Positions 11,548 to 48,424 of a DNA stretch of 64,000 nucleotides are shown in pieces. The notes beneath the pieces are model-generated. The model worked only from the letters and a program-made list of their open reading frames with translations, ran no database searches and was not told the DNA's origin. The stretch is from Clostridia bacterium (GTDB lineage Bacteria > Bacillota > Clostridia > UBA1381 > UMGS1253): NCBI GenBank assembly GCA_045652745.1, contig JAZRUW010000015.1, forward strand, positions 3,120 to 67,119. The letters are read 5' to 3'. Both the position numbers and the translations under genes were made by a program. The number at the start of each line of letters is the position of its first letter. Positions within the stretch are counted from its first letter, which is position 1.

Positions 11548-11576
11548 TTGACAAATGCTTTTTGAGGGCATATAAT
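11548..11576 (+). promoter_or_regulatory. sigma-A promoter of the T-box leader
   Basis: TTGACA (11548-11553), 17-nt spacer, TATAAT (11571-11576). Confidence 0.75.
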
Positions 11577-30346: not shown

Positions 30347-30375
30347 ATTATACCGCCATGCGGAGAAAATGTCAA
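30347..30375 (-). promoter_or_regulatory. sigma-A promoter of rpmH operon
   Basis: On the minus strand: TTGACA (30375-30370), 17-nt spacer, TATAAT (30352-30347). Confidence 0.7.
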
Positions 30376-38308: not shown

Positions 38309-39682
38309 ATGGAGCTGAAAACTGAAATCAAGAAAAATGATATATACGAAACAGAAATCGTGGACCAGGCTTCCAGCGGTGACGGCGTTTGTCGCATCGG
38401 CGGATTTGCCGTGTTTGTGCCGCGTACTGTCAAGGGGGATATTGCACGCATCCGTATCGTAAAAATGAACAAGACCTACGGGTTCGGCAGACTCGAAGCG
38501 CTTTTGCAGCCGTCGCCGGCAAGAGTGCAGCCGCCTTGCGCCGTGTTTGACAAATGCGGCGGCTGTGATTTCATGCATATTGATTACAAAACGCAGCTTA
38601 CGCTCAAGCAAAAGCAGGTGCAGGATGCCATTTCCCGCTTGGGCGGATTTAAAGATGTAACCGTGGAACCGACGCGCGGCATGGCGGAGCCGTATGCGTA
38701 CAGAAACAAGACGCAGATGCCGGTCGGTATGGATAAAGATGGTAAAACCATTTGCGGTTTTTACCGCCGACACAGTCATGATTTGGTGGAAACGTCGCAT
38801 TGCTCGGTATGCGCACCTGCGGCGATGCGGGCGGCAGAATGCGTTAAAGAATATATGCGTATTGCCAAGGTAAAGCCATACGATGAAAAGTCACATTCGG
38901 GCGTAATTCGCAATGTGTTTGTACGTACGGCAAAGGACGGCGCGGTGATGGTGGTTGTTGTAGCCAATGCTTTGTTTTTGCCCAAGCCTGAATTGCTCGT
39001 TTCGCTTTTGCGCGAGGGCGTAGAGGGATTGGTAAGTGTGCAGCACAATATCCATACGGAGAAAACCAATCTGGTGCTCGGAAAAAATAACGATGTACTT
39101 TGGGGCGAGCCGACACTTTGCGATAGTATCGGCGATTTGGAATTTGAAATTTCGCCACACAGTTTCTTTCAGGTCAATCCGATACAGACACAGGTACTTT
39201 ATGAAACGGCGGTAACGATGGCGAATATCCAAAAGACAGATACCGTCTTTGACCTTTATTGCGGTATCGGTACGATTTCTTTGTTTGCGGCAAAGCGCGC
39301 AGGTAAAGTTATCGGCGTGGAAATCGTAGAAGATGCGGTGCGCGATGCAAAGAAAAATGCCGTGCGCAACGGGATTGCAAACGCCGCTTTTTACTGCGGT
39401 GATGTGCAAAAAAGCATACAGGATTTGTATGGGCAGGGCGAGCGAGCTGACGTGGTGATTTTAGATCCGCCGCGCAAAGGCTCGGACGAAACAACGCTTG
39501 AAATTATTTTAAATATGCAGCCGGAGCGCATCGTATATGTTTCCTGCAATCCGGCCACACTTGCACGCGATTTGAAATATTTGTGCGCAAGCGGGGAGTA
39601 TAAGATTGACACAGTCGTTCCCGTAGACATGTTTCCGCATACGGTGCATGTGGAGTGCTGTGTGCTACTATGTCGCACATAG
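38309..39682 (+). CDS. 23S rRNA (uracil-C5)-methyltransferase, RlmD/RumA family
   Basis: TRAM N-terminus, Fe-S Cys cluster (CAVFDKCGGCDFMH ... C), SAM motifs (DLYCGIGTISL, ILDPPRKG) and a catalytic C-terminus (YVSCNPATLARD). Confidence 0.85.
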   Translation: MELKTEIKKNDIYETEIVDQASSGDGVCRIGGFAVFVPRTVKGDIARIRIVKMNKTYGFGRLEALLQPSPARVQPPCAVFDKCGGCDFMHIDYKTQLTLKQKQVQDAISRLGGFKDVTVEPTRGMAEPYAYRNKTQMPVGMDKDGKTICGFYRRHSHDLVETSHCSVCAPAAMRAAECVKEYMRIAKVKPYDEKSHSGVIRNVFVRTAKDGAVMVVVVANALFLPKPELLVSLLREGVEGLVSVQHNIHTEKTNLVLGKNNDVLWGEPTLCDSIGDLEFEISPHSFFQVNPIQTQVLYETAVTMANIQKTDTVFDLYCGIGTISLFAAKRAGKVIGVEIVEDAVRDAKKNAVRNGIANAAFYCGDVQKSIQDLYGQGERADVVILDPPRKGSDETTLEIILNMQPERIVYVSCNPATLARDLKYLCASGEYKIDTVVPVDMFPHTVHVECCVLLCRT

Positions 39683-39688
39683 CACTCA

Positions 39689-39864
39689 TCGATATAAATC
39701 TCTTGCGAGATTTTCGATATATCCTAACGGATTCGATATGTGCTAACGCACTCGATATGTTTCCTTTGGAAACGAGATTTATATCATATCGAAACCGAGT
39801 AAAGCGAGGTTATATCGAATTTTGCGAAGCAAAATATATCGAACACGCAAAGCGTGTATATCGA
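39689..39864 (+). repeat. array of 7 short variable hairpins separated by 8 copies of a 7-mer (4x TCGATAT, then 4x its complement ATATCGA)
   Basis: TCGATAT occurs at 39689, 39714, 39733 and 39752. ATATCGA occurs at 39786, 39812, 39836 and 39858. The intervening palindromes are AAATCTC-TTGC-GAGATTT, ATCC-TAAC-GGAT, GTGC-TAAC-GCAC, GTTTCC-TTT-GGAAAC, AACC..GGTT, ATTTTGC-GAA-GCAAAAT and ACACGC-AAA-GCGTGT. Confidence 0.8.
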
Positions 39865-39882
39865 TAAAGGAGATTATACTAT

Positions 39883-40233
39883 ATGGAAACCAACAAAAAC
39901 ACATTACGAGAAGAAACCATCAATTTTGCAATAGAAATATCTGATATTTGTGATAACATCAAAGGTTGTTCAGTATATATTAACCAGCTATTGAGATGTT
40001 CTTCATCTATCGGGGCTAATCTTCACGAGGCAAAATATGCACAAAGCAAAGCCGACTTTATAAATAAATTAGAAGTTGCATTAAAAGAAAGTTTTGAAAC
40101 GGAATATTGGTTAGAATTGTTATTTCGTAAGAATAGGATTGACGAAACTACATATAAAGGTTTAATTAACAAATGCGGAACGATAAGAAGAAAATTAATT
40201 GCATCTGTCACTACTGCGAAGAACAAACAATAA
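39883..40233 (+). CDS. four-helix-bundle protein (23S rRNA intervening-sequence protein family)
   Basis: RBS AAAGGAG. Motifs QLLRCSSSIGANLHEA and FETEYWLELL are typical of this family. The gene is strongly AT-rich compared with its neighbours. Confidence 0.7.
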   Translation: METNKNTLREETINFAIEISDICDNIKGCSVYINQLLRCSSSIGANLHEAKYAQSKADFINKLEVALKESFETEYWLELLFRKNRIDETTYKGLINKCGTIRRKLIASVTTAKNKQ

Positions 40234-40252
40234 AATATGGGAGATGATAAAT

Positions 40253-40615
40253 ATGTATATGCCTATATGGATATTATATTGGTTTCCATTCTTTTTGCCT
40301 ATAAACTATGGTATCAAATTTGCTGTTATTAATATTGTTTTATGGATTTGCAAAAAAGTGATGAATATTAATGATATATATAGTATATCTACTGCAATAA
40401 AAAGTTTCTGTTTAACTATCGTGGCAGAACTGGTAGGGATAGCAATGTTCTATATCATTGAAATGAATACTGAAACTGATTTTTACTATGGAAATTATTT
40501 GGCATTTTGTCTATTAGTATTTTTTAGTGTCTCCATATTAAATTTCATACTAAACTATATATTTGTTTTTAGGAAAATAAATGTTTCAACAAAACAAAGT
40601 TTCATCCTTGCATAA
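40253..40615 (+). CDS. small hydrophobic membrane protein, unknown function
   Basis: ATG at 40253 follows GGGAGATGA. It has 3-4 predicted TM segments and is AT-rich. Confidence 0.45.
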   Translation: MYMPIWILYWFPFFLPINYGIKFAVINIVLWICKKVMNINDIYSISTAIKSFCLTIVAELVGIAMFYIIEMNTETDFYYGNYLAFCLLVFFSVSILNFILNYIFVFRKINVSTKQSFILA

Positions 40616-40667
40616 GGTATATCAATAAAAACAATCAGAAAAATTTAGGCTATAGAGGGAAATCTGA

Positions 40668-40742
40668 AACACATTTGTTGAATTGCATGTTAACTACATT
40701 ATTCCTTGGTCAAAGGGCGGTGAAACAAAAATAGATAATTGA
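40668..40742 (+). pseudogene. remnant of an HNH-endonuclease gene (C-terminal ~24 codons)
   Basis: Translates as NTFVELHVNYIIPWSKGGETKIDN*, which resembles the HNH core (..DHIIPxSKGGxxxxxN). It is bounded upstream by an in-frame TGA and has no start codon. Confidence 0.4.
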
Positions 40743-40781
40743 CATTACCAATAAGCATATACATAATTTGAGGTGACGAAA

Positions 40782-41309
40782 ATGAATGCAATTGTCATTT
40801 ACAAATCAAAATACGGCTCGACCAAAGCGTACGCCGAGTGGATTGCCGAGGAAATCAGTTGCAGTGCTGTGGATGCAAAGACCGTCAAGGCGGCGGAATT
40901 GCAAAACTACGATACGATTATTTATGGTGGCGGGCTGTACGCGGAAATGATTGCGGGCGTAAGTCTGATTACAAAAAATTTTGATGCGCTCCAAGACAAA
41001 AAACTAGTTGTATATACTACGGGGCTGACGCCGCTTGACTGCCGCGACTATTATGATAAAATGGTTTTGGAAAAAAACTTTAAGCCGCATATGACAGAAA
41101 AAATCAAAGTGTTTAATTTTATGGGCAAGATGATAATAGAGGAATTGAGCCTGCCGCACAAGGCGGCGATTGTAGCCTTAAAGAAAATCATGTCCGGCAA
41201 GGAAAATCCGAACGAAATGGAGAAATTGCTTATCAAACTTTGCGATGAGAGCGGCGATTTTACCGACAGAGCGGCGATTGCTGACTTGGTCCGTTATGTA
41301 AAAGAATAA
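40782..41309 (+). CDS. flavodoxin-domain protein
   Basis: ATG at 40782 follows GAGGTGA. N-terminus IVIYKSKYGSTKAYAEWIAEE, with YDTIIYGGGLY further on. Confidence 0.7.
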   Translation: MNAIVIYKSKYGSTKAYAEWIAEEISCSAVDAKTVKAAELQNYDTIIYGGGLYAEMIAGVSLITKNFDALQDKKLVVYTTGLTPLDCRDYYDKMVLEKNFKPHMTEKIKVFNFMGKMIIEELSLPHKAAIVALKKIMSGKENPNEMEKLLIKLCDESGDFTDRAAIADLVRYVKE

Positions 41310-41310
41310 G

Positions 41311-41350
41311 AAAACCAAAAGCGATACCCGACGGGTATCGCTTTTGGTTT
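41311..41350. terminator. bidirectional terminator shared by the flavodoxin gene and the NTPase operon
   Basis: AACCAAAAGCGATACCCG/CGGGTATCGCTTTTGGTT. Confidence 0.85.
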
Positions 41351-41353
41351 ATC

Positions 41354-42175
41354 CTAATTGTTGAAAAAATCCTTTATGATTGCCAAAGTTAACTGCGCCG
41401 GCTCGAACGAGTTGACGTTGGGGACGGTGTCCATATATATGTATCGGTTGCGAATGGCATTTTTCCACTCGTCGTTTCCCATAGCCTCGCCGGCCCTCTG
41501 TTTTGCTGGTTTTTGGGAGGGATGGGTGTTTTGGTCGTCGAGAAGATTGTAGTATTGGATAAAGCCTTCGCGCAGGTAATTTCGGCACATATCATCCGAG
41601 CTAAACCAAGCGCCGTATAATTTTTTCCAGTTGTCAAATGCTTTTTGAGTATTTGAAATACGGTTTGACAGACAATTTTCAACAAGCTCCAGCCACGTTT
41701 TCGTGTGGTCATAAAGTCGTTCGAGCGCCGTTTGCCAATCTTCTTCTTCCATACGGAATTGCCAGCCATTTTTCACATCCGGATCTACGCCAAAATAGGT
41801 CCTGAAGCCTTTGTCAATCCAATCCTGCCGTTCGCGATTTACAGACAAATCATCATTGACCATGTGGCAATAATACAAACGCATATTGCGCAGAAAACAG
41901 ATAAACCTATCAAAGCGCGTGCAATCTCGTTCGGTAAAGCCGATATCTTGCAAAAAGTCGTTTTTGTCATCGTTGTTCCACATGCCGGGCATACACTCGC
42001 GAAACAGGATGTGTATGTTAATGCATTCGCGCCAGAACATACTTTCCGTTGTGTTTGTTTCGCTATAGAGCGGATTCCAGTCCAAAAAGATGTAACATCT
42101 TTTTTTAGCATCCAGATCTGCCGCAAGGTCGTTTATGCGCGCTACGGTATCCCTAAACAAATCGGAGCTGTTCAT
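41354..42175 (-). CDS. hypothetical protein with R-x4-H dyad (candidate HEPN-like effector), second gene of NTPase operon
   Basis: ATG at 42175 overlaps the upstream stop in ATGA. 273 aa, helix-rich and Trp/Asp-rich. FLRNMRLYYCHM lies at 41864-41881. I recognise no other motif. Confidence 0.55.
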   Translation of the reverse strand: MNSSDLFRDTVARINDLAADLDAKKRCYIFLDWNPLYSETNTTESMFWRECINIHILFRECMPGMWNNDDKNDFLQDIGFTERDCTRFDRFICFLRNMRLYYCHMVNDDLSVNRERQDWIDKGFRTYFGVDPDVKNGWQFRMEEEDWQTALERLYDHTKTWLELVENCLSNRISNTQKAFDNWKKLYGAWFSSDDMCRNYLREGFIQYYNLLDDQNTHPSQKPAKQRAGEAMGNDEWKNAIRNRYIYMDTVPNVNSFEPAQLTLAIIKDFFNN

Positions 42176-45100
42176 TCGTGTGACACCTTCTCTCTTGTAG
42201 CGGAGACGCCCACGAAGCTCACGCCGATGCAAAGGTCTTCAATAATTTTATCGGTTTTCTTGTACTGTTCCAAATCCACTCTTTCGCTTCCAAAGATATT
42301 GTTGCGGTTAAAGAACACGTTGGATGCAATGTGGCGGCGATCCGGACCATAGATATCCATTCGGCCTTTGGTGGCGTTGGAATCTTCAAATTTGTGGATT
42401 TTTCCGGAGAATAATTTCGGCGTACCGTCCGCGTGGCAAAGCAAATATCTGGGAATATTGCGCATGGTCTGGTTGACATCTTCGCTTTCACCGCGCAGAG
42501 CGGAAAACTCACTGTTGCAAGCGGCTATATCGCCGAGCTGTGCATAGGCCAACGCGAGCACATAACGTAAATAAAATGTATTTTCGGTTGCCGGCAAATT
42601 CTTTGCCTGCTCACAGATGGAGAGCAGCTTACACCACTGTTCATCGGTAAAATAGGTTCTTTGACGTTCGCCGGAAACGAGAAGCGGTGTTTTGTTGTGC
42701 ATCAGCCAGAACAAACGCATCTGCAGATTCAGACAACGTGCATCCGGCGTGTAGTTTTTCAGATATTCTTCGCCGAAGAAACGGTCGTAAATCGCGCGCA
42801 CTGCCTCGGTATCGTCGACGGATTTCCATTCGATACAAGGCTCCGTGCGGATAAATCCGGCTCTGCGGCATGCCTGAAAAGCGCAGCAGTACAGCATCGC
42901 CGCCGTCGGTTTTTCGACGCGCATTTTCTCGGCAAGGGCATCGACGTCTAAAACGGAATCCATCATATTAAACAATTCGTTACATGCCTGCACAAACTGG
43001 GAATGGTTTGCAATGTCCTTGGTTTGTTGCAGAGCCGTAAAGATTTTTTCAAGGGTATCGGAAATGTACTCTTGTTTTTCGGTTTCCTCCAGCGTGGTTT
43101 TGAGCAGATGCGCCCGTGTCCATACCAAAGTGGAAATTGCGTGCTTCTGGGAAGCACCGGAAACTCTCAAAACCTTATCGCACAGTCTGCCGGCGGCTAC
43201 AAGCTGGTCGGCATTCGGATGCTCTTTGTTGCGCATCGCCATGGCGAGTCTGCCGTTGGCCATTTCGACGCGCAGTTGGTCGAAATAACTGCGAAGAGAC
43301 ATGTCCATGCCCTCTTCTGCCTGTAGGAATTTCTCGCCCTTTGTCGACTTATCTGCGAGATCGGGGATGTAGCTTTGTGCATGGTATGCCCTAAAGAAAT
43401 CATCGTCGATGCCTTCCTCCCAGTCACGCGCTTCGCGCATAATGCTTACAAAGGTTTCGTAATCGCAACATTCTGCCAGGGCTTCCGGCTTGCTTGTCAA
43501 CTCACGCGTGAGCGTCAATTCCTGTACGAGAATGCGCGGGTCACGGGTTTGTTCGCCCGCTGCGGACAGGGCATTAATCAGGCATGGTGCATATTTGTAA
43601 AAGTCGTTTGCCGCCCAACGCAGGCTCTCGTTTTCGCGGTTGTTCGGGCCTACGGCAGAAATAATGCGCGTTACCTTTTCGATGGCTTCATCTGCTGCCT
43701 CGGAGGCAAACTGTCCCGTTTCAATCATATATAAAAGTCTGCAAAGGTATACGGTGTAGAGATCTTTGTTGTGTCCGTGCGGACTCATCTGATGTGCACG
43801 CAGAAGCATTTCTGCCTCCAGACGGGAACGGACCTTATAGTGCCATACGCCGGCTTGCTCTGTGGCGATAAATATCGGCGCATTGAGCGCTTTGATTAAA
43901 CTGTCCTGATTTGCAGAGAACAGGCCGAAAATCATATCGAGCGACATCGACATATTAAAGTAGGTCAGAATTGCCGAGTAGATGGCAAATTCTTTGAGTT
44001 TGCTTTTCTGGTTGTCTTCTGTGTTCAGACTGGCAAGAAAACTGTTGAATTTTTCCTGATTGGCACGCATAACAAACTGGCCGAACATGCCCTCCTGTAC
44101 GGTGCAGGCTTCCTGTAAAACATCTTTGACGGTTTCGCGAAATTCTGCGTAAATTCCGCGGGAAATGTCGCTTCGGATATCGTAGAAAATATGATAAAGG
44201 ATCGCCAGGAAATTGTCTTCCTTGCTGTAGCGTAAAATGGCATCAATATCAGTGATGTCCAGATTGGTCTTGTTTTTCAAAATGGAGCGGAACTGCGTTC
44301 TTTCGTCCGGATCGAGCCGGATGTCAGCACAGATATCATAAAACTCCTGTTTGAGCGAGGCGTTTTTGTTGAGTTGGTAATTTGTGCCGACCAAGGTAAC
44401 GTTTAAGCCGCTGTTACGCAAGTGGGTATAGAGTCTGTGGTAATTTGTGCGCTCAAATTCGAAACCCGAACAATCCCAAATCAGCAGTACGGATTTGGCG
44501 TCGTATTTGTCTTGCAACATTTTGATTAAATTAAACAAAGCATTGTAGCGGACGGAAGCATCTGTGTTATCGCGGGAAAAACTGAAGGTCACATTCGGAT
44601 TTGTAATATAGATGACCGGAAATTTCTTTTCGTGAAAAATTTCATAGGCAAGCTGACCCACAGCTACACTTTTGCCGGCGCCGGACTGTCCGTGCAGTAA
44701 AATCGGGCGGTGCTCAAAATTGGCCGGATTTTCCAAAGATGCGCGTACGACATCGGTCAATTCCTTTTGGAAGCTGCGCTCTAAGGCGTATTTTTCTGCA
44801 TAACCGAACCACTTGGGGTAATTGGTGTTGTTTTTTAAGAACGAGGCAAAATACGACGGATGTAAATATTTCGGCTTTGGCGGCGGATTCATTTCATCGT
44901 AATCCAACAATCTTGCAAAAGACGAGATGTCTCTGAGGTCTTTTTTCTCGATGGAAGCGCTCTTTTTGCCGACGAAGAATAAGCACTGGTCGCTGTCAAC
45001 GGGTTCGTCAAAAAAGTCGTCCTCCCAAGCATCGGACGTATGTGTACTTGTGTTCAAAGGTGCCCATTGCTCTGCTAAAGATTCGTTTAAGAATTTAAAG

Positions 45101-45666
45101 CAGGTGCATCGGCCGTTTTCATCGGCAATCATTTCACGTAAATCCGCAAAATCCGCGTCGCTGCAACGGTCGATAAGGATACAGTCTTCGCGCTCGAAAA
45201 CGGCGTGCATGGCATCTAACAGATTTTCGGCTTTAAACCAACTGTCCTCGGTGAAGCCTACAAAATATGCGCATCCGAAACGAGCGATTGCCTGTGCACA
45301 GAATTTGTCAATCGTGTCTTTTGCAATGCGGCGGTTTGTGTTTAACGACTTGCCGGTTTCCTCATTTTCCGCCAGATACCAAAGCGCAATTACGTTCAGG
45401 TTGCGCGGGTCGAACTGTTGCGGAATTTTCTGGGCATCCTCCAGGTTGTTTTTTAATACATTTATACATCTGGTTTCGGTGTCCATCGCAAATTGCAGTT
45501 TGTCTACGTCTTCTCTTTTTTGCAGAAAGGTAAACACGGTATTCCATTTTAAATTCAGTACGGCCTTGTCTTTTTCAAAATCAAAATTATCGCCTATGAA
45601 CAGTATGTTGCGCGCCATCGGCTCGTCAAAATACGCATAGGCTTTTGCAAAATCAAAATCACTCAT
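42172..45666 (-). CDS. large NACHT/STAND-like P-loop NTPase with N-terminal Rossmann-like domain, long helical-repeat region and C-terminal beta-rich domain
   Basis: ATG at 45666 follows AAAGGCGGG; the track start at 45744 falls inside the promoter. Walker A GQSGAGKS lies at 44668-44691. Walker B SVLLIWDCSG is followed by NVTLVGTN. About 600 aa of helical repeats follow. Confidence 0.7.
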   Translation of the reverse strand: MSDFDFAKAYAYFDEPMARNILFIGDNFDFEKDKAVLNLKWNTVFTFLQKREDVDKLQFAMDTETRCINVLKNNLEDAQKIPQQFDPRNLNVIALWYLAENEETGKSLNTNRRIAKDTIDKFCAQAIARFGCAYFVGFTEDSWFKAENLLDAMHAVFEREDCILIDRCSDADFADLREMIADENGRCTCFKFLNESLAEQWAPLNTSTHTSDAWEDDFFDEPVDSDQCLFFVGKKSASIEKKDLRDISSFARLLDYDEMNPPPKPKYLHPSYFASFLKNNTNYPKWFGYAEKYALERSFQKELTDVVRASLENPANFEHRPILLHGQSGAGKSVAVGQLAYEIFHEKKFPVIYITNPNVTFSFSRDNTDASVRYNALFNLIKMLQDKYDAKSVLLIWDCSGFEFERTNYHRLYTHLRNSGLNVTLVGTNYQLNKNASLKQEFYDICADIRLDPDERTQFRSILKNKTNLDITDIDAILRYSKEDNFLAILYHIFYDIRSDISRGIYAEFRETVKDVLQEACTVQEGMFGQFVMRANQEKFNSFLASLNTEDNQKSKLKEFAIYSAILTYFNMSMSLDMIFGLFSANQDSLIKALNAPIFIATEQAGVWHYKVRSRLEAEMLLRAHQMSPHGHNKDLYTVYLCRLLYMIETGQFASEAADEAIEKVTRIISAVGPNNRENESLRWAANDFYKYAPCLINALSAAGEQTRDPRILVQELTLTRELTSKPEALAECCDYETFVSIMREARDWEEGIDDDFFRAYHAQSYIPDLADKSTKGEKFLQAEEGMDMSLRSYFDQLRVEMANGRLAMAMRNKEHPNADQLVAAGRLCDKVLRVSGASQKHAISTLVWTRAHLLKTTLEETEKQEYISDTLEKIFTALQQTKDIANHSQFVQACNELFNMMDSVLDVDALAEKMRVEKPTAAMLYCCAFQACRRAGFIRTEPCIEWKSVDDTEAVRAIYDRFFGEEYLKNYTPDARCLNLQMRLFWLMHNKTPLLVSGERQRTYFTDEQWCKLLSICEQAKNLPATENTFYLRYVLALAYAQLGDIAACNSEFSALRGESEDVNQTMRNIPRYLLCHADGTPKLFSGKIHKFEDSNATKGRMDIYGPDRRHIASNVFFNRNNIFGSERVDLEQYKKTDKIIEDLCIGVSFVGVSATREKVSHE

Positions 45667-45715
45667 TTTTATCCCGCCTTTCGGTTTTGTAAAAGGATAC
45701 AATACTACTGATTTT

Positions 45716-45744
45716 ATTATAGCCTTATTGATTTTCCGTGTCAA
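45716..45744 (-). promoter_or_regulatory. consensus sigma-A promoter of the NTPase operon
   Basis: On the minus strand: TTGACA (45744-45739), 17-nt spacer, TATAAT (45721-45716). Confidence 0.7.
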
Positions 45745-45765: not shown

Positions 45766-45799
45766 ACAAAAAACCGATATGTCATGTGCATATCGGTTT
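45766..45799 (-). terminator. intrinsic terminator of carD
   Basis: AAACCGATATG/CATATCGGTTT hairpin followed by a T-run on the minus strand. Confidence 0.8.
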
Positions 45800-46304: not shown

Positions 46305-46533
46305 GCTGTCGACCCCCGCTACCCCTTATCTTTGTTTAAGTAGTTGCCTATTATCTAAATTCTACCACAGATTAAAAAATTTGTCAAAAAGATATTGTAA
46401 AAAAATATTGACAAATCTGTGTGTGGTTTTAGATTTTCTTGTGTGCAGAATTGCAAACTTTGTTGAAAATCGGCATGTTTTATGTTAAAATGCTTACAAA
46501 GATGTATTGTTTGGAGGCGAAAAGGAGAAGGTT

Positions 46534-47757
46534 ATGGAAAATAGTTCTGTTTTAAAAAAGCGTTGGCTGTATCTGGCGGTTGGTGTGTTTGCCATGCTGT
46601 TTTCAGGCGTGCTGTATGCATGGTCGATTTTAAAAGTACCTTTTAAAGAAGTCTTTGCGTGGACGGATGCGGCATTGGCGCTCAATTTCACGCTGACGAT
46701 GTGCTTTTTCTGTTTAAGTGCTTTTTTCGGCAGTCTGCTGTGCAAGCGTTTCGGGCCGAAACTTTCGCTGATTTTTGCCGGACTTTTGGTGGGCATCGGC
46801 TTTGTGCTCACGGGATTTTTGAGCGCAGACACGCTGTATCTGCTCTATATCGGTTATGCGGTTCTGTCCGGCAGCGGTATCGGCATTTCTTATAATGTAG
46901 TTGTGTCGACGGTCAATGCATGGTTTCCGGACAGAAAGGGACTTTGTTCCGGTGCGCTGATGATGGGCTTTGGCGTGAGTACGCTTCTGCTTGGGGAAGT
47001 TATCAGCAAACTGTTTGCAAACCCACAGGTCGGTTTCGGCAAAACCTATATTTATTTGGGCATTGTCATCGGTGCGGTGCTGATTTTAGCAGCTCTGATT
47101 TTAAAAAGACCGGGCACGGATGTTGTTTTGCCGCAAGTTGAGCAGGGGAAACGCACGGTAAATGAGGATTTTGAGGTGCGTGATTTTACAACGGCCGAGA
47201 TGCTGAAAAATTTCACGTTCTGGCGCGCGTTTGTGTGCATGATGTTTATGACGGCGGTGGGCAATTCCGTCATCAGTTTTGCGCGAGAATTAGTGATTTC
47301 TGTAGATGCCGCGCCGGCGTTGGCAACGACATTGGTCGGCGTGTTGTCTGTGTTCAACGGCATTGGCCGAATTGTGACCGGTGCGGTCTATGATGCGCTC
47401 GGGCGCAGAACTACAATGATTGCCGCCAATGTTTTAACGATTGCGGCGGCAGGGATAACGCTGGTTGCGGTATTTGCTGCATCGTTGCCGCTTTGCATTG
47501 TCGGACTTTGTTTGACGGGACTTTCCTATGGTTCCTGCCCGACGGTGACCTCGGCATTTTCGGCATCGTTTTATGGACAAAAATATTTTTCGACCAATTA
47601 CAGTATCACGAATTTCAACCTGATTTTCGCCGCGTTTATTGCCAATGCGAGCAATGCGTTGCTTGGTGCGACCGGCGGGTATGTCGCACCGTTTATCCTG
47701 TTGCTTTGTCTGGCGGTTGTAGCGCTTCTGCTCAATTTCAGTATTCGCAGACCGTGA
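46534..47757 (+). CDS. MFS transporter (oxalate/formate antiporter-like)
   Basis: ATG at 46534 follows GGAGAAGG. Twelve-TM profile with N-terminus RWLYLAVGVFAMLFSGVLYAWSILK. Confidence 0.7.
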   Translation: MENSSVLKKRWLYLAVGVFAMLFSGVLYAWSILKVPFKEVFAWTDAALALNFTLTMCFFCLSAFFGSLLCKRFGPKLSLIFAGLLVGIGFVLTGFLSADTLYLLYIGYAVLSGSGIGISYNVVVSTVNAWFPDRKGLCSGALMMGFGVSTLLLGEVISKLFANPQVGFGKTYIYLGIVIGAVLILAALILKRPGTDVVLPQVEQGKRTVNEDFEVRDFTTAEMLKNFTFWRAFVCMMFMTAVGNSVISFARELVISVDAAPALATTLVGVLSVFNGIGRIVTGAVYDALGRRTTMIAANVLTIAAAGITLVAVFAASLPLCIVGLCLTGLSYGSCPTVTSAFSASFYGQKYFSTNYSITNFNLIFAAFIANASNALLGATGGYVAPFILLLCLAVVALLLNFSIRRP

Positions 47758-47881
47758 TACAAATAAAACGGACACAGACGTGTCCGTTTTTATTTGTCGA
47801 AAATCAAATTTTTCCTTACATAAAAATTCCTTGTTTGCACAAAATACGATTGTACAACAAATCAAAAGGAGCAATCTTATC

Positions 47882-48424
47882 ATGAAAGCAACGGGAATTG
47901 TAAGAAGAATAGATGATTTGGGAAGAGTGGTTATCCCGAAAGAAATCCGACGTACGATGCGCATCCGCGAGGGAGACCCGTTGGAAATCTTTACCAACCG
48001 CGACGGCGAGGTGATTTTTAAAAAATATTCGCCCATCGGTGAACTTGGGGAGTTTGCCGGGCAATATGCCGAATCGCTGGCGAAAACGAGTAATCTGCCC
48101 GCCTGCATCACCGACCGTGATACCGTTATTGCTGTCAGCGGTGCGTCCAGAAAAGAGATTTTAGAAAAGCCGGTCAGCACAGAACTCGAGCGTTTGATGG
48201 GCAATAAGGCGACATATGCCAAAAAGGTGGGAGAAACGAAGCTTATTTCGCTCATTGAAGGCAATGACAAACATTATGCAAGTGTGGTTTGTCCGATTGT
48301 AGCCGACGGCGATTGTCTGGGCAGTGTGGTATTCTTTTCCGATGAAAAGGCGGTTTCAAGTGAGGCCGAGGAAAAACTGGCGCAGGTTGCGGCAAACTTT
48401 TTTGCAAGACACATGGAAAACTGA
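47882..48424 (+). CDS. spoVT: stage V sporulation protein T (AbrB-type regulator with GAF-like domain)
   Basis: MKATGIVRRIDDLGRVVIPKEIRRTMRIREGDPLEIF. Length 180 aa. Confidence 0.9.
   Translation: MKATGIVRRIDDLGRVVIPKEIRRTMRIREGDPLEIFTNRDGEVIFKKYSPIGELGEFAGQYAESLAKTSNLPACITDRDTVIAVSGASRKEILEKPVSTELERLMGNKATYAKKVGETKLISLIEGNDKHYASVVCPIVADGDCLGSVVFFSDEKAVSSEAEEKLAQVAANFFARHMEN

What the first reader, a model, noticed from the sequence alone, without database searches (positions are those of the whole stretch)
41354..45744. Two-gene operon: NACHT/STAND-like NTPase translationally coupled to an R-x4-H protein (candidate uncharacterised defence or conflict system)
Operon structure seen in the sequence: the stop of the ~1164-aa ORF and the start of the ~273-aa ORF overlap in ATGA (42172-42175). 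A perfect TTGACA-17-TATAAT promoter (45716-45744) sits right after the carD terminator. A bidirectional terminator (41311-41350) closes the unit.
Large protein, as seen: Walker A GQSGAGKS lies at 44668-44691. About 65 aa later comes SVLLIWDCSG (Walker B), then NVTLVGTN. This spacing and pattern match NACHT/STAND ATPases (LLILDGLDE ... LVTSR). Roughly 600 aa of helical repeats follow, ending in a ~100-aa beta-rich tail.
N-terminal domain (inference): the first ~200 aa carry ILFIGDNFD / WNTVFTF / AYFVGFTEDSW. These appear in the same order as the SIR2_2-type Rossmann motifs (GAGxS / TTNYD / GYSxxD), but with the usual catalytic positions substituted. This suggests a divergent or inactivated effector or nucleotide-binding module.
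Small protein (inference): it has RLYYCH (R-x4-H, 41864-41881), the minimal HEPN RNase signature.
Overall interpretation (inference): a STAND sensor plus a separate putative nuclease, located in a variable island, is the architecture of Avs/bNACHT-type antiphage systems. I do not recognise this particular pairing as a named system.
Basis: partly seen in the sequence, partly recalled or inferred. Interest (0 to 1): 0.85.

Follow-up and report, generated by a model that had tools for sequence, protein, structure and literature searches.

The report
SAMD9-like sensor with detachable RNase-like partner
This is a two-gene bacterial operon in which a large ATP-binding sensor, built like the core of the human antiviral protein SAMD9, is always followed by a small uncharacterised protein with an invariant Arg/His pair; it is most likely an undescribed antiphage system and a simple bacterial model of SAMD9-type immunity.

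Summary
A 1164-aa ORF (42172-45666, minus strand) and a 273-aa ORF (41354-42175) overlap in ATGA. A perfect TTGACA-17-TATAAT promoter lies upstream and a strong terminator downstream.

The large protein is a STAND NTPase. Its AlphaFold model matches human SAMD9 cryo-EM structures over essentially its whole length (Foldseek E 1e-18; next is Avs5 at 9e-8). The predicted domains are SIR2-like, a small beta module, NOD, helical repeats and a C-terminal beta-barrel. SAMD9's fused SAM and AlbA_2 tRNase are absent. The SIR2-like domain lacks the catalytic Asn and His.

The small protein belongs to an unannotated family of about 315 clusters. R99 and H104 are the only invariant columns among 135 members, and E60 is nearly invariant. 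Most members, but not the window clade, end in a module like the tail of CCA-adding enzymes. A HEPN fold could not be confirmed.

The small gene follows the large one in 23 of 23 readable loci across at least four phyla, often beside CRISPR-Cas, toxin-antitoxin, restriction-modification or integrase genes. The pair diverges much faster than its neighbours.

Best reading: an Avs/SAMD9-like defence system whose RNase-type effector is encoded in trans. It is a new variant of a known kind; no function was tested.

The parts
45716..45744 (-). Sigma-70-type promoter TTGACA-17-TATAAT of the operon
   Evidence: 12 of 12 match. Three perfect sites in the window against 0.01 expected. Sequence read.
45673..45680 (-). 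Ribosome-binding site AAGGCGGG, 6 nt upstream of the ATG at 45666
   Evidence: Read directly from the sequence.
42172..45666 (-). Large gene: 1164-aa STAND NTPase with SAMD9-core architecture
   Evidence: ORF. All 17 homologs hit Pfam nSTAND_NTPase5, sub-threshold in the window protein. AF2 model pLDDT 78. Foldseek top hits are human SAMD9 at E 1.4e-18, then Avs5 at 9e-8.
45052..45666 (-). Residues 1-205: SIR2-like Rossmann domain, predicted catalytically inactive
   Evidence: Alternating beta/alpha elements in the AF2 model. The full-length alignment is to SAMD9 chains that start at the SIR2-like domain. N to S/F and H to F/Y/W/L substitutions in all 17 homologs. No Pfam SIR2 hit.
44872..44988 (-). 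Residues 227-265: small beta module between the SIR2-like domain and the NOD, in the position of the SAMD9 Delta domain
   Evidence: Strands 227-232, 235-240 and 251-253 in the AF2 model. SAMD9 domain order from PMC13600222. The equivalence is inferred.
43792..44712 (-). Residues 319-625: NOD module (P-loop NBD, helical domain, winged helix)
   Evidence: AF2 secondary structure. Foldseek hits to NLRP9, Avs3, NOD2 and Apaf-1. It is the most conserved part, 0.69 identity among close homologs.
44668..44691 (-). Walker A GQSGAGKS (residues 326-333)
   Evidence: G326, G329 and K332 are invariant in 17 homologs.
44473..44487 (-). Walker B LLIWD (residues 394-398); the next residue is C/A/S/T, never acidic
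   Evidence: D398 is invariant.
42487..43791 (-). Residues 626-1060: alpha-helical repeat region (TPR-like), the presumed sensor
   Evidence: All-helical in the AF2 model. Foldseek hits include IFIT5 and TPR proteins. 0.46 identity among close homologs.
42175..42486 (-). Residues 1061-1164: C-terminal beta-barrel, OB-like by its position in the SAMD9 alignment
   Evidence: Strands 1086-1157. SAMD9 ends in an OB domain. It is the least conserved domain, 0.36 identity.
42172..42175 (-). ATGA stop/start overlap (translational coupling)
   Evidence: Junctions are similarly tight in the gene and ORF calls listed for the other loci: mostly +8 to -8 nt, with a 44-nt overlap called in L006.
41354..42175 (-). 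Small gene: 273-aa all-alpha protein of an unannotated family (about 315 clusters at 50% identity); candidate RNase-type effector
   Evidence: AF2 model pLDDT 81, pTM 0.80. No hit in Pfam, NCBIfam, PADLOC or PHROGs.
41864..41881 (-). RLYYCH (R99-H104): the invariant Arg/His dyad
   Evidence: The only invariant columns among 135 members; family consensus LRTxxQHNL.
41996..41998 (-). E60: near-invariant acidic residue (131 E and 4 D of 135)
   Evidence: It is lost together with R99 and H104 in the LuxR-fused member P0164.
41312..41350 (-). Intrinsic terminator (18-bp stem) closing the operon, shared with the convergent flavodoxin_5 gene

Best explanation
The operon most likely encodes a two-component, Avs/SAMD9-like antiphage (abortive-infection) system.

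**Shown here**
- The large protein is a STAND NTPase whose predicted structure has the SAMD9 core: a SIR2-like domain, a small beta module, a NOD, helical repeats and a C-terminal beta-barrel.
- It has no fused effector, and its SIR2-like domain lacks the NADase residues.
- The small protein is its obligate, translationally coupled partner. It carries an invariant Arg/His dyad and a near-invariant Glu.

**Inferred**
- The helical-repeat and OB-like region senses an infection cue.
- The ATP-bound NOD opens and oligomerises. By analogy with SAMD9, the SIR2-like and OB-like domains would act as assembly surfaces.
- The assembly recruits or brings together copies of the small protein.
- The Glu/Arg/His site then acts as a metal-independent, HEPN-like endoribonuclease and arrests translation.
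- In most of the family, a C-terminal module resembling the tRNA-binding tail of CCA-adding enzymes suggests that the substrate is tRNA. The small protein would then stand in for SAMD9's fused tRNase. This tail is not detectable in the window's own clade.
For: - **SAMD9-like fold.** The Foldseek match to SAMD9 spans about 1300 alignment columns at E 1.4e-18. The next best hits are Avs5 (9e-8), then NLRP9, Avs3, NOD2 and Apaf-1.
- **What is known of SAMD9.** The SAMD9 structures begin at the SIR2-like domain. That domain is non-catalytic and is needed, together with the OB domain, for activating contacts; the tRNase is flexibly linked to it.
- **Bacterial precedents.** SAMD9-like Avs5, Avs6 and Avs9 are known or predicted defence proteins that carry fused effectors.
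- **Strict pairing.** The small gene follows the large one in 23 of 23 readable loci. These span Firmicutes, Pseudomonas, Paraburkholderia, Enterobacterales, Acidobacteriota and Spirochaetia.
- **Conserved site.** R99 and H104 are the only invariant columns of 135 members, and E60 is acidic in all 135.
- **Joint loss.** E60, R99 and H104 are all lost in the one member fused to a LuxR HTH.
- **CCA-enzyme tail.** 60 of 135 members hit Pfam tRNA_NucTran2_2. The family profile hits the C-terminus of human TRNT1 at E 3e-5.
- **Neighbourhoods.** Type II-A CRISPR-Cas, Phd/ParE, an SNF2 helicase with an Eco57I-type methylase, integrases, and an AlbA_2 protein.
- **Fast divergence.** Large 51-57% and small 38% identity, against 70-89% for flanking genes. 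The NBD is the most conserved domain and the sensor and OB regions the least.
Against: - No function was tested.
- The small protein has no significant structural neighbour in PDB or BFVD. No HEPN profile matches it, so RNase activity rests on a motif.
- In the model, the dyad lies at the C-terminal end of a helix. From my recollection of canonical HEPN domains, the motif usually sits at the start of one.
- The residue after the Arg is Thr in the family and Leu in the window clade.
- The CCA-tail module is not detectable in the window protein. A profile built without its own clade aligns only residues 8-192.
- One member is fused to a PNP_UDP_1 effector and others to AAA-lid or HTH modules. 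That would also fit an adaptor role.
- In this lineage the pair sits at a conserved chromosomal position with host-like GC content.
- Sequence profiles do not retrieve SAMD9 or Avs5 from the PDB, so the relationship is structural only.
- TM-scores are low (0.26) because the domain arrangement differs from the cryo-EM structures or is poorly predicted (pTM 0.56).
Confidence: 0.55

Rival explanations
1. It is the same defence system, but the small protein is an adaptor or regulator rather than the killing enzyme. It would dock on the STAND protein and couple it to other effectors or to a ligand. The Arg/His/Glu site would bind a phosphate-bearing ligand or form the interface. In this clade the toxic output would come from something else, such as the oligomerised STAND itself or an unlinked factor.
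For: - Family members are fused to unrelated output modules: PNP_UDP_1 (P0050), a LuxR HTH (P0164), and an AAA lid (P0116 and the L011 partner).
- No nuclease fold or profile was detected.
- The small protein diverges faster than the large one, as an interface or specificity subunit might.
Against: - Two invariant residues and one near-invariant charged or polar residue, in a family that otherwise shares about 24% identity, are typical of a catalytic site.
- All three are lost together exactly in the HTH-fused member.
- Most members carry no other effector domain, and the large protein has none either.
Confidence: 0.2
2. It is a non-immune signalling or housekeeping module of this Clostridia-like lineage. 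For example, it could be a stress-responsive regulator of translation or RNA turnover, inherited vertically at a fixed locus.
For: - The pair holds the same carD-to-flavodoxin_5 slot in three species.
- Its GC content equals that of its surroundings.
- Many STAND clades are not defence-associated (PMC12803255).
- Mekhedov et al. suggested signal-transduction roles for bacterial SAMD9 homologs.
Against: - The family is patchily spread across at least four phyla and lies next to integrases, CRISPR-Cas, toxin-antitoxin and restriction-modification genes elsewhere.
- It evolves far faster than its neighbours.
- It is rare: only 11 homologs of the large protein were found among 5.8 billion clusters with the word-indexed search.
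- No match was found in 5,426 complete E. coli genomes or 72,556 plasmids.
Confidence: 0.12
3. It is a toxin-antitoxin-like addiction module. The small protein would be a constitutive RNase toxin and the large protein its neutralising partner, stabilising the genomic region rather than sensing phage.
For: - Tight translational coupling and strict co-occurrence.
- Frequent adjacency to Phd/ParE modules and mobile-element genes.
Against: - A 1164-aa NLR-like protein with a NOD, a repeat sensor and an OB-like domain is far more elaborate than an antitoxin.
- Its closest structural relatives are immune sensors.
- The gene order, with the large gene first and the small one second, matches sensor-effector operons.
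Confidence: 0.08

Closest known systems
Human SAMD9/SAMD9L and bacterial Avs9 (AlbA_2-SIR2-NTPase-TPR-OB; Mekhedov 2017 PMC5445408; Legrand 2025 PMC12680541; Mou 2026 PMC13600222)
   Same: - The domain order matches from the SIR2-like domain to the C-terminal beta-barrel, and SAMD9 is by far the best structural match (E 1e-18).
- The SIR2-like domain is non-catalytic.
- The Walker B motif has no second acidic residue. This fits an ATP-bound switch, as reported for SAMD9/9L.
- SAMD9 and Avs9 act through an RNase-type effector, and SAMD9 cleaves tRNA-Phe.
   Different: - The protein has no SAM domain and no fused AlbA_2 tRNase.
- The candidate effector is a separate gene from an unrelated, unannotated all-alpha family.
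- No sequence-level similarity to SAMD9 is detectable with HMMER profiles.
- Pfam places the NTPase in nSTAND_NTPase5.
Avs5 (AVAST type 5, SIR2-STAND; PDB 9nc9; PMC12931631)
   Same: - It is a bacterial STAND protein with an N-terminal SIR2-fold domain and helical-repeat sensor, and is itself SAMD9-like.
- It is the second-best structural match (E 9e-8).
- The Avs5 NTPase family, nSTAND3, gives weak hits in 10 of 17 homologs.
   Different: - Avs5 is a single gene whose SIR2 domain is an active NADase effector, matching Pfam SIR2_2.
- Here the catalytic Asn and His are absent, no SIR2 profile matches, an OB-like tail is present, and a second gene always follows.
HEPN-domain RNase effectors (Cas13, Csm6/Csx1, RnlA/LsoA, Abi families, RNase L)
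   Same: - The R-x4-H dyad is strictly conserved in an all-alpha protein.
- The protein is associated with a conflict-system sensor.
- There is a single motif per chain, so activation by induced dimerisation would be a natural mechanism (inference).
   Different: - No HEPN profile or fold match was found.
- In the model the dyad is at the C-terminal end of a helix.
- The residue after Arg is Thr or Leu rather than the usual Asn/His/Asp.
- The domain is larger, about 190 to 230 aa.
- Most members carry a tail like that of CCA-adding enzymes.
Multi-gene STAND/NLR systems with effectors encoded in trans (some bNACHT and Avs operons; EAD-coupled systems of Kaur et al. 2021, PMC8195603)
   Same: A sensor NTPase and a separately encoded effector sit in one operon.
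   Different: No shared effector-associating (Death-like/EAD) adaptor domain is evident in either protein, so the mode of coupling is unknown.

Membership tests
STAND NTPase superfamily | P-loop NTPase with Walker A GxxxxGK[ST] and Walker B hhhhD | tested here: met
   GQSGAGKS and LLIWD are present. G326, G329, K332 and D398 are invariant in 17 homologs.
STAND NTPase superfamily | NOD module (NBD plus helical and winged-helix domains) followed by a repeat-type sensor | tested here: met
   The AF2 model shows an NBD, helices, a winged helix (H576-594, E599-612) and then helical repeats. Foldseek hits NLRP9, Avs3, NOD2 and Apaf-1 at E 1e-5 to 1e-6.
Pfam nSTAND_NTPase5 (PF25199) | Score above Pfam's gathering threshold (34 bits) | tested here: inconclusive
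   The window protein scores 24.3 bits, E 3e-5, which is below the cut-off. All 17 homologs hit the family, best E 2e-13, and it is the precomputed domain for most homologs.
   No NACHT hit for the window protein at E <= 1. In 11 of 17 homologs only weak hits appear, best E 0.0014, all weaker than nSTAND_NTPase5.
SAMD9 / Avs9 family | Core order SIR2-like, NTPase, TPR, OB | tested here: met
   The AF2 domain order and a near full-length Foldseek alignment to SAMD9 chains that run from SIR2 to OB, E 1.4e-18.
SAMD9 / Avs9 family | N-terminal AlbA_2 (Schlafen-type) tRNase effector fused to the core | tested here: not met
   The protein starts directly with the SIR2-like domain. None of the 17 homologs hits SLFN_AlbA_2.
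SAMD9 / Avs9 family | Detectable sequence homology to SAMD9 | tested here: not met
   HMM profiles of 11 and 17 homologs do not retrieve SAMD9 chains from PDB sequences at E <= 1. HHpred-type profile-profile comparison was not available.
Avs5 (AVAST type 5) | Catalytically competent SIR2 NADase domain (Pfam SIR2_2; catalytic Asn and His) | tested here: not met
   No SIR2 profile hit at E <= 0.1 in 17 homologs. The TTNYD-like motif reads TSSxD or FTFLQK, and the LHG-like motif reads LFG, LYG or ALW.
Avs5 (AVAST type 5) | Single-gene system | tested here: not met
   A second conserved gene follows in 23 of 23 loci.
HEPN superfamily (small protein) | Conserved R-x4-6-H motif | tested here: met
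   R99 and H104 are invariant in 135 members and present in nearly all of 150 listed hits.
HEPN superfamily (small protein) | HEPN four-helix-bundle fold, or a match to a HEPN profile | tested here: inconclusive
HEPN superfamily (small protein) | Metal-independent endoribonuclease activity | not testable with these tools
   Needs biochemistry.
Known defence systems in PADLOC-DB 2.0.0 | Match of either protein to a system model | tested here: not met
   The small family has no recurrent hit among 135 members. The large family gives only a P-loop-local hit to mad8, and one member to Avs2.

The most novel reading that the evidence does not exclude
The small protein founds a previously unrecognised family of tRNA-directed endoribonucleases. 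It would combine a new all-alpha fold, a Glu/Arg/His site and a tRNA-docking tail borrowed from CCA-adding enzymes. A SAMD9-core STAND sensor would switch it on in trans. Bacteria would then have paired the 'SAMD9 chassis' with a tRNase at least twice independently: fused AlbA_2 in Avs9, and this detachable partner here. That would make control of tRNA cleavage the ancestral job of the chassis.
Probability: 0.3. Interest if true: 0.85.

Novelty: new variant of a known kind. Interest (0 to 1): 0.72.

Why it matters
**Link to human disease.** SAMD9 and SAMD9L are human antiviral and disease genes (MIRAGE syndrome, bone-marrow failure), and how they are activated is still being worked out. This operon would be a compact bacterial system with the same sensor chassis but a separable effector. 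It would let activation, oligomerisation and effector licensing be dissected genetically, with each part on its own gene.

**New families.**
- It adds an unannotated protein family of about 315 clusters, present in gut commensals such as Roseburia intestinalis, to the list of candidate immune effectors.
- It adds a new operon type to the SAMD9-like Avs group (Avs5, Avs6, Avs9).
- It would close a gap in defence-system annotation, because no match was found in PADLOC-DB 2.0.0, Pfam-A or NCBIfam.

Tried and rejected
**Searches that found nothing**
- Pfam, NCBIfam, PADLOC and PHROGs on the small protein gave no hits. PADLOC on 135 family members gave no recurrent family.
- Foldseek of the small-protein model against PDB and BFVD found nothing significant.
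- tblastn and blastn against plasmids and complete E. coli genomes found no match.
- Literature searches for nSTAND5, nSTAND, SAMD9 with HEPN, Avs9, and CCA-adding enzyme with HEPN found no description of this pair.

- The metagenome scan with the flavodoxin_5 neighbour, meant to test presence or absence of the pair in relatives, returned only short or distant contigs and was uninformative.
It returned only 5 distant loci, though these proved useful.

**Hypotheses considered and rejected**
- Active SIR2 NADase effector, as in Avs5: the catalytic Asn and His are absent family-wide.
- NACHT membership: only weak hits.
- MADS mad8 membership: the hit is local to the P-loop.
- Recent horizontal acquisition in this genome: GC content equals the surroundings and the locus is syntenic in three species.

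**Not determined**
- The organism could not be named. Cluster look-ups returned no names for the window's proteins. The gene content (carD, spoVT/abrB) suggests Clostridia.

Full report
**1. What is in the sequence**

The minus strand of 41312-45744 holds one compact transcription unit.
- A perfect TTGACA-17-TATAAT promoter lies at 45744..45716. It is one of three perfect sites in the window, against 0.01 expected from shuffles.
- It sits just downstream of the carD terminator at 45771-45799.
- An AAGGCGGG ribosome-binding site precedes the ATG at 45666.
- The large ORF of 1164 aa ends at 42172. Its TGA overlaps the ATG of the 273-aa ORF as ATGA.
- The small ORF ends at 41354. An 18-bp-stem terminator follows at 41350..41312, shared with the convergent flavodoxin_5 gene.

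One R-x4-H in a protein of this composition is expected 0.30 times by chance. The motif means something only because of its conservation, described in section 4.

**2. The large protein**

Profile libraries give little. The window protein has a sub-threshold hit to Pfam nSTAND_NTPase5 (24 bits against a cut-off of 34), weaker hits to nSTAND3 and AAA families, and nothing convincing in NCBIfam or PADLOC. The family is rare: the word-indexed search of 5.8 billion clusters found 11 homologs, with 100% to about 18% identity.

An AlphaFold2 model built on those homologs has pLDDT 78 and pTM 0.56. It shows these parts:
- a Rossmann-type alpha/beta domain (residues 1-205);
- a small beta module (227-265);
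- a P-loop NBD with helical and winged-helix domains (about 319-625);
- about 430 residues of helical repeats;
- a C-terminal beta-barrel (1086-1157).

Foldseek against the PDB puts six human SAMD9 cryo-EM chains first, at E 1.4e-18 to 6e-16. The alignments span about 1300 columns against chains of about 1120 residues. The next hits are the Avs5 filament (9e-8), then NLRP9, Avs3, NOD2 and Apaf-1 (1e-5 to 1e-6). TM-scores are low (0.26), as expected when domain arrangements differ.

The SAMD9 paper states that the resolved chain begins at the SIR2-like domain. The order is then a Delta domain, the NOD, TPR1, TPR2 and OB. It also reports that:
- the SIR2-like domain lacks the NAD lid and is unlikely to bind NAD;
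- SIR2/SIR2 and OB/SIR2 contacts are required for activation;
- the N-terminal tRNase is flexibly attached (PMC13600222).

The window protein therefore has the SAMD9 core without the SAM and AlbA_2 tRNase domains.

Alignment of 17 homologs supports this:
- The four SIR2-like motifs are recognisable: xLGQ/D, PWxxVFTSSxD, LFG and DGYxxxxDW.
- The catalytic Asn and His are replaced in every sequence, and no Pfam SIR2 model matches.
- The Walker A residues G326, G329 and K332 and the Walker B aspartate are invariant.
- The residue after the Walker B aspartate is never acidic. This fits a nucleotide-bound switch, as described for SAMD9/9L; that link is an inference.

**3. The partner is obligatory**

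The gene calls for the first homolog loci already show a gene of about 240-300 aa directly 3' of the large gene on the same strand. In the gene and ORF calls listed, the junctions are mostly tight (from +8 to -8 nt), apart from a 44-nt overlap called in L006.

HMMs of the two families were then run on the six-frame ORFs of all 24 held sequences. In 23 of 23 cases where the downstream DNA exists, the small-family gene follows the large one; in L012 the contig ends too soon to tell.

These loci include:
- Roseburia-type gut Firmicutes;
- Pseudomonas simiae;
- Paraburkholderia tropica;
- an Enterobacterales genome;
- an Acidobacteriota MAG;
- a Spirochaetia MAG.

The identities of the two proteins to the window versions fall together. 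This fits inheritance as a unit.

**4. The small protein**

It has no hit in any profile library. The exhaustive HMMER search of 1.84 billion representatives found 315 clusters at E <= 1e-3, typically about 300 aa.

In an alignment of 135 members with a mean column identity of 24%:
- the only invariant columns are R99 and H104, with family consensus LRTxxQHNL;
- E60 is Glu in 131 members and Asp in 4;
- F30, F47, T100, W147 and W183 are nearly invariant.

Fusions are informative:
- P0164 is fused to a LuxR-type HTH and has lost E60, R99 and H104 together. This argues that the three act as one functional, probably catalytic, site.
- P0050 keeps the site and is fused to a PNP_UDP_1 phosphorylase domain. 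Legrand et al. predict the PNP domain of Avs6 to degrade ATP.

Sixty of the 135 members hit Pfam tRNA_NucTran2_2 at their C-terminus. The family profile hits the last ~60 residues of human mitochondrial CCA-adding enzyme at E 3e-5, and yeast Cca1 at 0.009. From general knowledge of class II CCA-adding enzymes, the tail helps hold the tRNA. This suggests a tRNA substrate for the family.

The window's own clade (RLYYCH, 273-288 aa) is divergent. A profile built without that clade aligns only residues 8-192, at E 3e-13. The tail homology therefore cannot be claimed for this protein.

The AF2 model is confident (pLDDT 81, pTM 0.80) and all-alpha with one beta hairpin. Foldseek finds no significant neighbour in PDB (best E 0.097; the HEPN protein Csx1 at E 2) or in BFVD. 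'HEPN' is thus a motif-level resemblance and not a demonstrated membership. In the model, the dyad lies at the C-terminal end of helix 82-106.

**5. Genomic context and evolution**

In the window and in two related species (L001, L002), the pair sits between carD and a flavodoxin_5 gene, near a TRAM-domain RNA methyltransferase.
- Flanking proteins are 70-89% identical between these genomes. The large protein is only 51-57% identical and the small one 38%.
- Within the large protein, the NBD is the most conserved part (0.69). The repeats (0.46), the SIR2-like domain (0.46) and the OB-like domain (0.36) are the least. This is an NLR-like pattern.
- The GC content of the pair equals its surroundings.
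- The slots on either side vary. L001 and L002 have AraC and ABC-transporter genes there. The window has a low-GC segment. A 99%-identical strain (L003) has a serine-recombinase island.

In other lineages the pair lies next to:
- a type II-A CRISPR-Cas9 locus (L019);
- Phd/ParE modules (L018, L020-L022);
- an SNF2 helicase with an Eco57I-type methylase (L016);
- a P4-type integrase (L015);
- a tyrosine recombinase (L014);
- an AlbA_2-HATPase_c_4 protein (L017).

The 'variable island' description is therefore only partly right for this genome. The defence-island association holds for the family as a whole.

**6. Mechanism**

*Shown:* the architecture, the strict pairing, the conserved site, the contexts and the fast divergence.

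*Inferred, by analogy with SAMD9, Avs5/Avs9 and other STAND sensors:*
- the repeat and OB-like region detects an infection cue;
- the ATP-bound NOD opens and oligomerises, with the inactive SIR2-like domain and the OB-like domain serving as assembly surfaces;
- this recruits or juxtaposes small-protein molecules;
- their Glu/Arg/His site cleaves RNA, likely tRNA in tail-bearing members;
- translation stops and the infection aborts.

I give this full statement about 0.55. The weaker claim that the operon is a STAND-based conflict system rates about 0.8.

The main rival is that the small protein is an adaptor or regulator rather than the nuclease (0.2). This is supported by its fusions to other output domains and by the lack of a recognisable nuclease fold. 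Non-immune signalling (0.12) and a toxin-antitoxin-like role (0.08) are less likely.

**7. Comparison with what is known, and novelty**

SAMD9-like bacterial STANDs are already known:
- Mekhedov et al. 2017 reported bacterial SAMD9 homologs, some without AlbA_2 or SIR2.
- Legrand et al. 2025 named Avs6 (with a PNP domain) and Avs9 (AlbA_2-SIR2-NTPase-TPR-OB), and showed AlbA_2-dependent toxicity.
- Avs5 is a SIR2-NADase STAND whose NTPase is nSTAND3.
- The 2026 Avs survey reserves the names Avs6 and Avs9 for the SAMD9-like families.

None of the papers found describes a SAMD9-core STAND with a NADase-dead SIR2-like domain paired with this small family. PADLOC-DB 2.0.0 has no model for either protein. 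One family member in Roseburia intestinalis is annotated only as 'hypothetical protein'.

I therefore class the finding as a new variant of a known kind: an Avs/SAMD9-like system with an effector encoded in trans. It includes a probably new effector family.

**8. Limits**
- There are no experiments.
- The SAMD9 relationship is structural only; sequence profiles do not reach it.
- No complex prediction was possible.
- Presence or absence of the pair among close relatives could not be sampled.

Noticed in passing
window 39500-41000 (ORFs 39655-39867, 39883-40233, 40199-40615): A low-GC segment (32-34% against about 45-50% around it) lies next to the operon. It carries a 23S_rRNA_IVP-type four-helix-bundle gene, a 70-aa ORF and a 138-aa membrane-like ORF. 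It looks like a remnant or cargo of a mobile element.
   Followed up: partly
window ~39647 (3' end of the TRAM methyltransferase gene 38309-39682); L003 17117-23495: In a 99%-identical strain (L003), the sequence diverges at this point into an island. The island carries a large serine recombinase, a D12-class adenine methyltransferase, an HTH protein, a YpsA-like protein and a resolvase. The methyltransferase gene product there is 549 aa instead of 457 aa.
   Followed up: partly
window 40599-40611 and 47810-47982; L003 15069-16152 and 6308-7684: Two strain-specific indels lie close to the operon. Each corresponds to an Acyl_transf_3 gene that is present in L003 and absent from the window.
   Followed up: no
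window 11548-11576 (+) and 30347-30375 (-): Two further perfect TTGACA-17-TATAAT promoters are present in the window. The total is 3 against 0.01 expected, so this organism uses the canonical sigma-70 consensus.
   Followed up: no
P0164 and P0050 (small-protein family members): P0164 is fused to a LuxR/GerE HTH and has lost E60, R99 and H104 together. P0050 keeps the site and is fused to a PNP_UDP_1 phosphorylase domain. Legrand et al. predict the PNP domain of Avs6 to degrade ATP.
   Followed up: partly
L011 4199-5797 and P0116: Some partners are about 530-550 aa long, with an extra N-terminal region that hits Pfam AAA_lid_14 ahead of the small-family domain. In L011 the pair is followed by DUF2130 and a 1345-aa Upf1-like helicase.
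   Followed up: no
many small-family members, about residues 180 and 238 (e.g. P0065, P0066, P0072, P0119): Many proteobacterial-type members have additional recurrent R-x4-H strings: RxxR[YF]H or RxxPPH near residue 180, and R[KR]LIEH near 238. These are absent from the window clade and their significance is unknown.
   Followed up: no
L010 1314-2531 and 3177-3548: In this metagenomic contig, the pair lies downstream of an Ltp-like lipoprotein gene and a small RNA_pol_A_CTD-like gene. From memory, Ltp is a prophage superinfection-exclusion type. One small-family member (P0093) carries an RNA_pol_A_CTD-like N-terminal extension.
   Followed up: no
window 47780-48424 (+) and 46507-47757 (+): A SpoVT/AbrB-type regulator and an MFS transporter flank carD. 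Together with carD, this gene content points to a Clostridia-like host, but no source names the organism.
   Followed up: no
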